Shown piece by piece: positions 5,100 through 7,514 of a DNA stretch of 38,169 bases. The stretch comes from a virus (lineage: Duplodnaviria; Caudoviricetes), in the IMG/VR virus record IMGVR_UViG_3300046786_000064, positions 1 through 38,169 of that record. The stretch is one strand, 5' to 3'. The position numbers and the translations under genes are program-made. Each line of letters begins with the position of its first letter. Within the stretch, counting starts at the first letter, position 1. The notes below the pieces were generated by a model. It was not told the DNA's origin. It worked only from the letters and a program-made list of their open reading frames with translations, and ran no database searches.

Positions 5100-6590
5100 T
5101 TATGCAACCCGCGACACGTTTCGGCGCAACGGCTTGGACCACTGCTGCGCGGTGTTCGCACCGAACATCCCGATGGCTGCGTCAGATGCAAACGTCAAGA
5201 CAAAGCTGTCAGCCTTGTCGGGTGACTTCAGGCCGCGCTTACGAATGTCATCCTTACTCTCAATCTGAATCTTGCCGTTGGACGTGAAGAAGTAACGAAC
5301 GGTAGCCAGTTCCGCTACAAGTTCCTCGTCCAATGGGATACGACAGTCTCGCGCCTCAAACCACGCTTTGCACTTGTACCAAAGCTCGGCGCGTAAGTTC
5401 CTGTAGGTCGTACCCATCGCAGGGGACTCGGACACGTTAATGCCGCGAACAGGCAAACCCAACTCGCGCAGTCGGTCAACCACGCCAGCGCCCAAACCGA
5501 TGGAGTCCACCAAAATCTCATGGGGGCGCTGGCTAGAAGGCAACGCCTCCCACTCAGCAACCACTGCACCCGTCAGTTGCATCAAATCCAAGTTCTTCCA
5601 GACCTTGATCGGCTCAATCAGCGCGTTGCCCTGACGCTTGGCAAGGGTCGAGCGATCACCACCAAAACGTGCAACGTCCAAGCCCCAGATCAGTTTGGCG
5701 TGTTGAGAAGTCGCCACATCTCGGTGCTTGGACAGCTCCAGCAGCTCCATCGGGATGATGGTGTCATCGTCCGATCTAGGGAATTCACCTAGTACGCGAA
5801 TTCGGTAGGCGTTGGACTCCTCTCCGTAACGCGCTTTCATCTCCTCAACGTAGGCATCAGATACCCGTGGAGAGTCCACGCAAGACACCTTCATAGTCAC
5901 CCAATCATTCGCCAGACGGTTGTGGGTGTCATAAAAGAATCCAGAGCTTCGGACGGGGTTGCCCAACAACAGAGTCACGGCATTGTGTCCAGACATAGAG
6001 CCAGCCGCAGCCTCGAAAACCTGTTCGGGTATACCCGATGCTTCGTCAGCAATCAGCATCACGTTGTCGCTGTGGACACCCTGTAAGGCTTCGGGCTGTT
6101 CGGCTCGGCTGGTCCTTGCGGACACGAAGGCTTCGGTTGCGGCTTCCTTGACTTCGATGCGGTCTTGCTTCACTTCAAGCATATCCCGCAAGGTTGGGGG
6201 CAGTTCTTTCACCCATCGCTTCAGTTCCGCGAAAAGCGCGTCATATAACTGGCTCGATGTGGGGGCTGTCACCACGACCTTGACGGGGTAACGCAAAAGT
6301 AAATACCAAATGATTGCCCAACTTGCGCCTGTGGACTTGCCTACTCCGTGGCCTGATCGGACAGAGATTCGGCGCTCACCTTTGGCGATGTGGTTCAGCA
6401 TAGTCTCTTGCCACTCATCAGGGACGGTGTTCAAGACTTCCTTGACGAACAGCACAGGGTTGTTTCGGTATCGGGCTGTGAAGGCCACGAAAGGATTGTT
6501 CTTGATCTTCTCGTCTAGCTTCTTGGCAGCGTTGTCCACCAGCTCCTGTGTATCAACGTGCAGTTTCTTGGGGGTTGATTCTGTAGTCAT
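5100..6590 (-). CDS. terL: Terminase large subunit
   Basis: Walker A RSGHGVGKS, Walker B IADEASG, GNP coupling motif, nuclease GLDVARFGGD and SPDKADS. Confidence 0.95.
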   Translation of the reverse strand: MTTESTPKKLHVDTQELVDNAAKKLDEKIKNNPFVAFTARYRNNPVLFVKEVLNTVPDEWQETMLNHIAKGERRISVRSGHGVGKSTGASWAIIWYLLLRYPVKVVVTAPTSSQLYDALFAELKRWVKELPPTLRDMLEVKQDRIEVKEAATEAFVSARTSRAEQPEALQGVHSDNVMLIADEASGIPEQVFEAAAGSMSGHNAVTLLLGNPVRSSGFFYDTHNRLANDWVTMKVSCVDSPRVSDAYVEEMKARYGEESNAYRIRVLGEFPRSDDDTIIPMELLELSKHRDVATSQHAKLIWGLDVARFGGDRSTLAKRQGNALIEPIKVWKNLDLMQLTGAVVAEWEALPSSQRPHEILVDSIGLGAGVVDRLRELGLPVRGINVSESPAMGTTYRNLRAELWYKCKAWFEARDCRIPLDEELVAELATVRYFFTSNGKIQIESKDDIRKRGLKSPDKADSFVLTFASDAAIGMFGANTAQQWSKPLRRNVSRVA

Positions 6591-6614
6591 GTGTGGATTG
6601 TGGCATCAATGAGC

Positions 6615-6795
6615 TGTTGGCGTCAGGTCGTGAACCCTGTATTCTTGATAGGCACAGTCCTACCCATATCCACCGCGAATCCGCAATGTCTCGTCCACCA
6701 ACACGACTGAGGACTGAAGCCAGTTCCCGCTGGAGACTGTCTGCCTAAGCATCATAGAAACAGCCTTTATCCGACAATCCTCATGCGTCTTGATG
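6615..6795 (-). ncRNA. Putative structured non-coding RNA (long stem plus tRNA-like cloverleaf)
   Basis: 6775-6795 pairs with 6696-6716 (18/21 bp with G-U on the minus strand); 6696-6703 can alternatively pair with 6615-6622, closing three hairpins; -10 TACACT just upstream. Confidence 0.6.
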
Positions 6796-6833
6796 TCGTA
6801 GTCAAGTGTAGTCGTTTTCTAGATTTTTTTAAA
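6790..6833 (-). promoter_or_regulatory. Putative promoter of the ncRNA, overlapped by a TTGAT-N6-GTCAA operator-like site
   Basis: -10 TACACT at 6805-6810 (minus), A/T tracts upstream, weak -35; palindrome at 6790-6805. Confidence 0.45.
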
Positions 6834-7005
6834 ATTTTTTTTCGGGATGCGTGTGGAGTTGCGCCTGTACAGCCACCCCGCCGACACGCCACCACGGGGG
6901 GCTTCGGGCGCTGTCGGCTGGCACGATTCCTGCCTAGATCGCATTATGAATACTTTGGCACTCAACGACTTTATACAATGTCCATTATGTAAAGTTATTT
7001 TGTCG

Positions 7006-7103
7006 TTATCCACAGCTCATACATACATTTCGTTGCATCGCTGCAACAAACCATGTGAACTGTGGACAACTTGAACAACTTACGACAGTTTGTCTGTGGG
7101 TAA
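7006..7103. promoter_or_regulatory. DnaA-box cluster
   Basis: TTATCCACA at 7006-7014 (+); one-mismatch boxes on minus at 7061-7069 (TTGTCCACA) and 7095-7103 (TTACCCACA). Confidence 0.55.
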
Positions 7104-7514
7104 CTCGGCCTCGATGTACTCGCCATGTCGCAGCGCATCGAGCCGCAAGTTAGCCAGATTGACCGTAACGCTCGGCATCTTGTTCTGCGCATACGCTGCT
7201 GGATTCCATCGTTCAGCCACCCATTGGCGCGTTTGGACCCTTAAACGAGCCTTATTTACTTCACTTATGTCGGTTTCGTCAGAGATTTCTATTATTTCCG
7301 ACACCAAGTTGTCTGCCGCTTTCGCGCGCACGCGAGAGAGGAAGCCCTCGTTCTCTGGGCGATCAAGCCAAACCGTCAAGGCTTTTCGGCCTATGCCGAG
7401 CTTGTAGCAAATGCGAGTCTCGGACAGTCCAGCCTCGAACAAAGTTTGAATCTGCTCTCTCGGTAGCGTATCGAGCAACGCTAAGTCCTCAACCTTCTTT
7501 TTTTGTCCAGCCAT
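7080..7514 (-). CDS. terS: Terminase small subunit (Sf6 gp1-like)
   Basis: N-terminal HTH, RVRAKAADNLVSEIIEISDE...ARLRVQTRQWVAERWNP; GGAGG SD; upstream of terL. Confidence 0.8.
   Translation of the reverse strand: MAGQKKKVEDLALLDTLPREQIQTLFEAGLSETRICYKLGIGRKALTVWLDRPENEGFLSRVRAKAADNLVSEIIEISDETDISEVNKARLRVQTRQWVAERWNPAAYAQNKMPSVTVNLANLRLDALRHGEYIEAELPTDKLS

What the first reader, a model, noticed from the sequence alone, without database searches (positions are those of the whole stretch)
6615..6795. Structured ncRNA upstream of terL: long stem plus tRNA-like cloverleaf sharing a switch strand
Seen on the minus strand: CAUCAAGACGCAUGAGGAUUG (6795-6775) pairs with CAGUCCUCAGUCGUGUUGGUG (6716-6696) at 18 of 21 positions. 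This stem encloses a 9-bp hairpin AGGCUGUUU/AGACAGUCU and a CCAG/CUGG hairpin. The 3' end of that arm, UGUUGGUG, can instead pair 8/8 with CGCCAACA (6622-6615). That closes an 89-nt cloverleaf: CAUUGCG-GAUU-CGCGGUG, GGUAGG-ACUGUG-CCUAUC (GUG in the loop, like a His anticodon) and CAGG-GUUCACGA-CCUG (T-loop-like GUUC). The many G-U pairs fix the strand and argue for RNA-level structure, and a -10 (TACACT) sits just upstream. Inference: an unannotated phage RNA system of alternating inverted-repeat scaffolds carrying structured cargo domains, possibly released by RNase III or RNase P. It could be a tRNA mimic or decoy against anticodon nucleases, a c4-like regulator, a packaging RNA, or a switch controlling terL.
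Basis: partly seen in the sequence, partly recalled or inferred. Interest (0 to 1): 0.85.

Follow-up and report, generated by a model that had tools for sequence, protein, structure and literature searches.

The report
Phage plug-in cassette for small RNAs
This 220-base optional insert is one unit of a widespread phage cassette, also present in phage lambda, in which two paired repeats hold swappable folded RNAs from hundreds of families that the host enzyme RNase III likely cuts free, pointing to a large overlooked toolkit of phage small RNAs.

Summary
Observation confirmed. The stem and the 8-bp "switch" are the two slots of a modular phage RNA cassette: repeat A pairs with repeat B around cargo 1, and B's 3' end pairs with a downstream strand around cargo 2. 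About 830 IMG/VR stretches carry B. In 286 units the arms covary (G-C 189, A-U 74, G-U 23, A-C 0), and cargos form 143 and 90 families, reshuffled between phages. A likely homologous scaffold sits in enterobacterial phages, lambda included. E. coli RNase III rules place the cut at the first base of slot 2 in 276 of 282 units; in the Qin prophage analogue a published in vivo cut lies exactly there. It is not a terL switch (15 of 69 close relatives have it; terL looks leaderless) and not a true tRNA-His. Transcription of this family is unshown and cargo function is inferred (decoys or mimics). No description found in 10 literature searches. The scan noted what looks like the same stalk on other DNA (e1-7959924).

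The parts
6605..6825 (-). whole optional insert between the A/T tract and the terL start region
   Evidence: absent as a 221-nt block in a contig of run X14 and in L004 and L010
6805..6810 (-). -10-like hexamer TACACT; start of transcription inferred near 6797, at the foot of the stalk
   Evidence: same spacing in 23 of 125 first units vs 0.9 expected
6775..6795 (-). repeat A, 5' arm of the stalk; predicted RNase III cut 1 between 6786 and 6785
6717..6774 (-). cargo 1: two hairpins (6766-6734 and 6733-6720) on a three-way junction; family of 8 loci in several gene contexts
   Evidence: 5 of 31 pairs changed on both sides
6696..6716 (-). repeat B, 3' arm of the stalk; predicted RNase III cut 2 between 6704 and 6703; 6703-6696 is the shared strand
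6623..6695 (-). cargo 2: three hairpins giving a non-canonical cloverleaf; recurs behind several different cargo-1 modules
   Evidence: 150 of 150 cells paired; 2 of 25 pairs changed on both sides
6615..6622 (-). closing strand C; makes the 8-bp acceptor-like helix with 6703-6696
   Evidence: 179 of 269 units vs 20 shuffled
6597..6602 (-). CACAAT six bases before the terL ATG: inferred own promoter of a leaderless terL mRNA; context, not part of the cassette
   Evidence: CACAAT or AACAAT in 77 of 78 relatives; Shine-Dalgarno-like motif in 0 of 78
5100..6590 (-). terL (context)
   Evidence: PHROG phrog_2, E 1e-43
7080..7514 (-). terS (context)
   Evidence: PHROG phrog_1482, E 1e-12

Best explanation
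The insert is one unit of a modular phage cassette whose paired repeats hold swappable folded RNAs; it is likely transcribed from its own promoter, likely cut twice by host RNase III to free both RNAs, which would then act in trans as mimics or decoys of host RNAs. Steps: (1) inferred: transcription starts at the foot of the stalk. (2) shown by covariation: A pairs with B over about 20 positions around cargo 1. (3) predicted here, measured only in the E. coli analogue: RNase III cuts at 6786/6785 and 6704/6703, giving an 82-nt RNA closed by a 9-bp stem. (4) pairing shown, order of events inferred: cut 2 exposes the first base of the shared strand, and strand C displaces the leftover A fragment, closing cargo 2 in an 8-bp tRNA-acceptor-like helix that would resist exonucleases. 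(5) shown: cargos are gained, lost and reordered between phages; recombination at the repeats is the inferred route. (6) inferred, weakest step (about 0.4): the freed RNAs are shape mimics or decoys for host RNA-binding or defence proteins.
For: Covariation at a position left free: G-C 189, A-U 74, G-U 23, A-C 0 of 286 units; one unit per cargo family 91/39/9/0 of 139, and 21 of 60 multi-member families hold both A-U and G-C versions. Shell helix in 179 of 269 vs 20 shuffled. Cargo families: 143 in slot 1, 90 in slot 2, 5 found in both slots. The window's two cargos occur in reverse order in L005 and with other partners in L009, L013, L214, L371, L239, L241. The in vivo E. coli RNase III pair table (PMC6212723 Table S4) picks one register in 276 of 282 units and the equivalent register in 86 of 101 enterobacterial units; in both, cut 2 falls on the first base of the shell. 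In the K-12 Qin prophage the measured double cut 1641215/1641171 falls in the same architecture, and cut 2 frees the first base of a perfect 9-bp shell. On lambda's late leader the table picks +209 from pR'; this agrees with the site I recall from Daniels 1988 (title seen, positions from memory). Five of 177 shells start in exact tRNA register, T-loop motifs occur in 14 of 177 vs 2.2 expected, and one enterobacterial shell is a true tRNA-Arg. One cargo is shared with tRNA clusters of T4-like and Pseudomonas phages under other closing stems.
Against: No transcript or cut has been shown for the freshwater family. The RNase III score alone is weak: 2482 of 10000 permutations of the window's own pairs score as well, and only 103 of 282 units beat 90% of their permutations. 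The table is from E. coli, the likely host is a betaproteobacterium, and the Qin site is among the table's 85 training sites. Cargos stripped of their closing stems fold barely better than shuffles (median z -0.67 and -0.20; reverse complements -0.51 and -0.42). Units were picked by patterns for A and B, so invariant arm columns are partly built in. Homology of the freshwater and enterobacterial arms rests on short similarity, one compensatory swap and one shared cargo family. Two other K-12 prophage cuts I inspected (essD and nohD leaders) are not in this scaffold. No target of any cargo is known.
Confidence: 0.72

Rival explanations
1. Same cassette and release, but the cargos are base-pairing regulators (sRNAs) of host or phage mRNAs rather than shape mimics.
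For: Cargo 1 keeps a single-stranded junction stretch nearly invariant across 8 loci. DicF, a prophage sRNA, borders an RNase III stem.
Against: No complementary stretch beyond chance in the phage's own genome. Many cargos keep T-loops or loop-loop pairings, which fits tertiary shape better. Host targets were not searched.
Confidence: 0.2
2. The cloverleaf is a tRNA-His mimic that decoys anticodon nucleases.
For: Cloverleaf fold with an acceptor-like helix; GUG invariant in 6 of 6 copies; slot 2 holds tRNA-like bodies elsewhere; the extra 5' paired base resembles the -1 base of tRNA-His (recalled).
Against: Loop of 6 nt on a 6-bp stem, 4-nt D-like loop, no A58, no encoded CCA (sequence); no ARAGORN or Rfam tRNA call.
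Confidence: 0.1
3. The shared strand is a riboswitch-like switch that controls terL.
For: Sits 25 nt before the terL ATG; two near-equal conformers; terminase genes are the commonest neighbours.
Against: Only 15 of 69 close terL relatives carry it; terL has a -10-like hexamer 6 nt before ATG in 77 of 78 and no Shine-Dalgarno motif; no terminator here; the same cargos occur before other genes.
Confidence: 0.05
4. The modules are selfish or neutral DNA that spreads by recombination; the stems only spare the downstream mRNA.
For: Patchy presence; no fixed partner gene; weak folding of bare cargos.
Against: Compensatory changes inside both window cargos; cargos conserved across phages of different host classes; no transposase or reverse transcriptase travels with it.
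Confidence: 0.08
5. It is a packaging RNA (pRNA-like) or a c4-like antisense immunity RNA.
For: Location beside terminase genes; c4 RNAs are phage cloverleaf RNAs (recalled; listed in PMC2864571).
Against: Dispensable in most relatives and variable in sequence; no Rfam c4 match at E up to 10; no cis target.
Confidence: 0.05

Closest known systems
RNase III processing stalks of polycistronic RNAs (rRNA operons, T7 early RNA: recalled; rules in PMC6212723 and PMC1540722)
   Same: About two helical turns, G-C pairs between the cuts, A-U at the D/D' positions, product closed by a stem.
   Different: Here the stalk is a mobile repeat with interchangeable non-coding cargo, and its 3' arm doubles as the 5' strand of a second, acceptor-like helix.
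Lambda late-leader RNase III sites (Daniels et al. 1988; title only seen, in the reference list of PMC7547250) and the Qin cspB-essQ double cut (PMC6212723 Table S3)
   Same: Same two-slot architecture and cut register.
   Different: In what I could read these are recorded as cleavage sites only, not as a cassette family with exchangeable RNAs. Arm letters differ from the freshwater form.
Phage tRNA operons with extra stable RNAs (T4 RNA C and D, unknown function per PMC9697503); Rfam STnc100
   Same: Non-coding RNAs co-transcribed and processed; one cargo shared with T4-like tRNA clusters; slot 2 in tRNA register; STnc100 near an enterobacterial array.
   Different: Only 13 of 122 freshwater loci have a tRNA within 700 nt; the repeats make a standard socket; hundreds of cargo families.
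UG27 reverse transcriptase ncRNA arrays (bioRxiv 10.64898/2026.09.22.753630)
   Same: Variable arrays of ncRNA units in prophages, with gain and loss of units.
   Different: UG27 units share one fold and need a linked RT and two proteins; here no protein is linked, the scaffold is constant and the cargo folds differ.
CRISPR, TIGR and type III toxin-antitoxin repeat arrays; integron cassettes (recalled)
   Same: Repeats bound exchangeable units that are processed apart.
   Different: No Cas, Tas, toxin or integrase gene; units are 25-130-nt folded RNAs that recur as families, not guides or identical repeats.

Membership tests
RNase III double-cleavage substrate | helix of about two turns around the cut | tested here: met
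   18 of 21 positions paired; family-wide pairing
RNase III double-cleavage substrate | pair preferences (G-C/C-G between cuts, A-U at D/D') | tested here: inconclusive
   score -28.2 vs -27.1 +/- 3.2 for table-sampled substrates, one clear register, but 25% of permutations score as well
RNase III double-cleavage substrate | rnc-dependent 5' ends with a 2-nt stagger | not testable with these tools
   measured only for the Qin analogue
tRNA (His) | acceptor stem of 7-8 bp | tested here: met
   8/8 pairs
tRNA (His) | 5-bp stem with 7-nt anticodon loop; D-loop GG; T-loop with A58 | tested here: not met
   6 bp with 6-nt loop, 4-nt D-like loop, C at 58; no ARAGORN or Rfam call
c4 antisense RNA (RF01695) | match to the covariance model | tested here: not met
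   also none in 20+20+8 array loci
c4 antisense RNA (RF01695) | complementary targets in the same phage | tested here: not met
   longest matches 9-11 nt, equalled by 41-98 of 100 shuffles
UG27 or retron ncRNA array | linked reverse transcriptase | tested here: not met
   none among 44 window proteins scanned (44 of 226 ORFs); no family in more than 17 of 112 loci within about 1.5 kb
CRISPR/TIGR/type III TA array | linked effector gene and unique or identical short units | tested here: not met
cis-acting leader or riboswitch of terL | conserved presence in the terL 5' UTR | tested here: not met
   15 of 69
RNase P substrate | cleavage 5' of an acceptor-like helix with a 3' NCCA tail | tested here: inconclusive
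   helix present; tail is mostly ACY rather than CCA, GCUC in the window; cleavage not testable

The most novel reading that the evidence does not exclude
Phages of Proteobacteria, lambda included, share a protein-free 'RNA integron': a standard RNase III socket through which they trade a library of hundreds of small folded RNAs, each a decoy or mimic that disarms a host defence or translation factor, the RNA counterpart of anti-defence protein islands. It would also explain lambda's late-leader cuts and the unassigned stable RNAs of phage tRNA clusters.
Probability: 0.35. Interest if true: 0.95.

Novelty: categorically new. Interest (0 to 1): 0.8.

Why it matters
It turns scattered unannotated phage gaps into one system with defined ends, so each cargo can be cloned as a discrete RNA and screened. 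Lambda and the K-12 Qin prophage carry the analogue, so the model can be tested at once in laboratory E. coli. It makes an old question testable: what the non-tRNA stable RNAs of phages, and the processed lambda late leader, are for. The processing chemistry is known; the exchangeable two-slot organisation is what I could not find described. The interlocked stalk and shell is also a natural design for making stable small RNAs in vivo.

Tried and rejected
Rfam on the window (gathering, and E up to 10 on 6550-7100) and ARAGORN: nothing relevant. Rfam on 48 array loci: neighbouring tRNAs, STnc100, weak permuted-tmRNA and IsrJ scores, and sub-threshold Betaproteobacteria toxic-sRNA scores on the opposite strand outside the arrays. 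BLAST of the element against cultured phages and plasmids: no meaningful match. Expression: 8 runs laid, all contigs; they hold relatives with other cargos or the empty site and cannot show transcription. The scan with the T-like hairpin alone gave mostly coding chance matches (6 of 28 were the element). The metagenome scan gave 2 true copies of 28, one new. Of 6 genome hits, the Acidobacteriota one is chance and the Flavobacterium one is a 2.3-kb MAG scrap. Hammerhead core: 0 of 442 freshwater cargos. K-12 essD and nohD RNase III sites are not in the scaffold. Term-seq (PMC7815308 supplements) shows only a plus-strand 3' end at 1641060, which says nothing on the Qin shell RNA. The lead that stalks start at a tRNA's CCA held for 1 of 122 long loci; usually the upstream RNA is a shell. 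Daniels 1988 could not be read.

Full report
Setting. The window is a complete 38-kb virus record. PHROG calls on 44 of 226 ORFs give terS at 7080-7514 and terL at 5100-6590, both on the minus strand. The finding lies in the gap between them.

Observation. The arms pair 18 of 21; the cloverleaf is the MFE fold; the whole region is only mildly stable (z -1.70), the stalk and shell more so (z -3.11; z -2.47). No Rfam or ARAGORN hit.

It is an optional insert. Of 80 terL relatives (85-99% identity), 69 have enough upstream DNA and 15 of these carry both repeats within 400 nt (14 of 58 distinct). The empty site lacks 6605-6825 exactly (L004). terL has CACAAT or AACAAT 6 nt before its ATG in 77 of 78 relatives and no Shine-Dalgarno motif, which I read as a leaderless mRNA with its own promoter. 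A terL switch is therefore unlikely.

It is a family of arrays. Repeat B matches an estimated 830 IMG/VR stretches (119 fetched); the shell-to-stalk junction about 130 (120 fetched). Loci hold 1, 2 or 3 units (166, 67, 9; the second scan selects for arrays). In 286 distinct units the free position of the stem covaries without an A-C case, also with one unit per cargo family. G-U is allowed and A-C is not, which fixes the strand and argues for RNA. The 2x2 loop is conserved as unpaired (9 and 0 of 286 paired). B's last eight bases pair with a downstream strand in 179 of 269 units against 20 shuffled while also pairing with A's 5' part, so the 'switch' is a family trait. Cargos fall into 143 and 90 BLAST families, over half seen once, and 5 families occur in both slots. 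The window's cloverleaf occurs in 8 distinct contexts with 6 distinct sequences, all pairs kept and 2 pairs changed on both sides (few sequences, 56 of 500 shuffles reach that count). Cargo 1 occurs in 8 loci with 5 of 31 pairs changed on both sides. L005 has both in reverse order. No protein family accompanies more than 17 of 112 loci; terminase genes of several families are the commonest neighbours. Four of six genome hits are Burkholderiales, one an isolate of Polynucleobacter, so the host group is likely Burkholderiales.

A sister scaffold in cultured phages. Cargo searches led to HK633, phiEt88, a P1-like phage, STGO-35-1 and K751. These have the same two-slot layout with other arm letters, differing among other things by a compensatory G-C to C-G swap, and share one cargo family. 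The sister repeat matches an estimated 730 IMG/VR stretches; 101 units were parsed from 126 loci, with a shell in 39 of 88 against 7 shuffled. Lambda carries one unit between pR' and S. Homology of the two forms is inferred.

Mechanism. The in vivo RNase III pair table (PMC6212723) favours one register in 276 of 282 freshwater units and 86 of 101 enterobacterial units. In the window that is 6786/6785 and 6704/6703. The score by itself is not selective (25% of permutations do as well). What carries weight is that cut 2 lands on the first base of the shell helix in both forms, and that in Qin a measured double cut does exactly this. For lambda the table gives +209, matching my recollection of Daniels 1988, which I could not read. 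So the shared strand is best read as a hand-over: it first completes the RNase III stalk and then closes the second RNA. Slot 2 is in tRNA acceptor register, which suggests descent from phage tRNA operons, but the window's cargo is not a tRNA. What the cargos do is inferred. Their diversity, patchy spread, sharing across host classes and tRNA-like parts fit an arms-race role as mimics or decoys (about 0.4); base-pairing regulation is the main rival.

Results against. No expression evidence for this family; weak folding of bare cargos; pattern-based selection of units; two other prophage cuts not in the scaffold.

Literature. Ten full-text searches found no description of this cassette; the library lacks most subscription papers. 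Seen: PMC6212723 (passages, supplement part 1 and searched rows); PMC1540722, PMC9697503, PMC7547250, PMC4131195, PMC7067206, PMC2864571, PMC5737381 (passages; the last one's supplement unreadable); PMC10690425 (passages, 7 supplementary files searched without a hit, files 1 and 2 unreadable; it reports 14 anonymous candidates upstream of a large terminase, so single modules may be among them); the Minerva preprint (abstract and passages; supplements closed); PMC7815308 (supplement search). Daniels 1988: title only. T7, rRNA stalks, c4, pRNA, TIGR and integron features are recalled. An earlier scan note (e1-7959924) describes what looks like the same stalk in a lake phage's tRNA operon; it is an unchecked AI note and not counted as support.

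Verdict. Real, conserved, modular and apparently undescribed as a system. It works like an RNase III-processed operon but fails membership of tRNA, c4, UG27 and CRISPR-type arrays. Confidence 0.72 in the cassette-and-release model, about 0.4 in the decoy role. Interest 0.8.

Noticed in passing
window 6597-6602 and terL relatives L001-L080: CACAAT or AACAAT ends 6 nt before the terL ATG in 77 of 78 relatives with no Shine-Dalgarno motif: likely a leaderless terL mRNA.
   Followed up: partly
window 7006-7103: Three DnaA-box-like 9-mers (motif recalled) cluster at the end of terS, 3 of 10 in the genome; similar boxes recur in relatives. Possible origin or packaging region.
   Followed up: partly
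L005, L108, L363-L367 and others: The commonest slot-2 family is itself a socket: two hairpins whose loops are complementary (G-C 30, G-U 7, A-U 4, A-C 0 of 41 copies) flank a variable 32-102-nt insert of 36 families; found in both host groups.
   Followed up: partly
L363:2200-2400, L364:1660-1850, L365:1696-1894: A permuted-tmRNA-like RNA with a short tag-like reading frame precedes the enterobacterial cassette (weak Rfam scores).
   Followed up: no
L521:254-383 (K-12 dicF-dicB gap): A measured RNase III double cut brackets an STnc100-like shell RNA, here inside the stem (by eye).
   Followed up: partly
L299:1068-1180, L123, L109, L157, L162: tRNA-like RNAs with intact D and T arms but an expanded anticodon region.
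   Followed up: partly
L204 (Polynucleobacter prophage): About 1 kb of non-coding modules between a repressor-like gene and early genes, with a tRNA-Gly; several modules are shared with cultured phages.
   Followed up: partly
L371: Same cloverleaf and downstream flank as the window but another cargo 1 whose arms carry several compensatory changes.
   Followed up: yes
L405: A true tRNA-Arg (TCT) occupies slot 2 of the enterobacterial cassette.
   Followed up: yes
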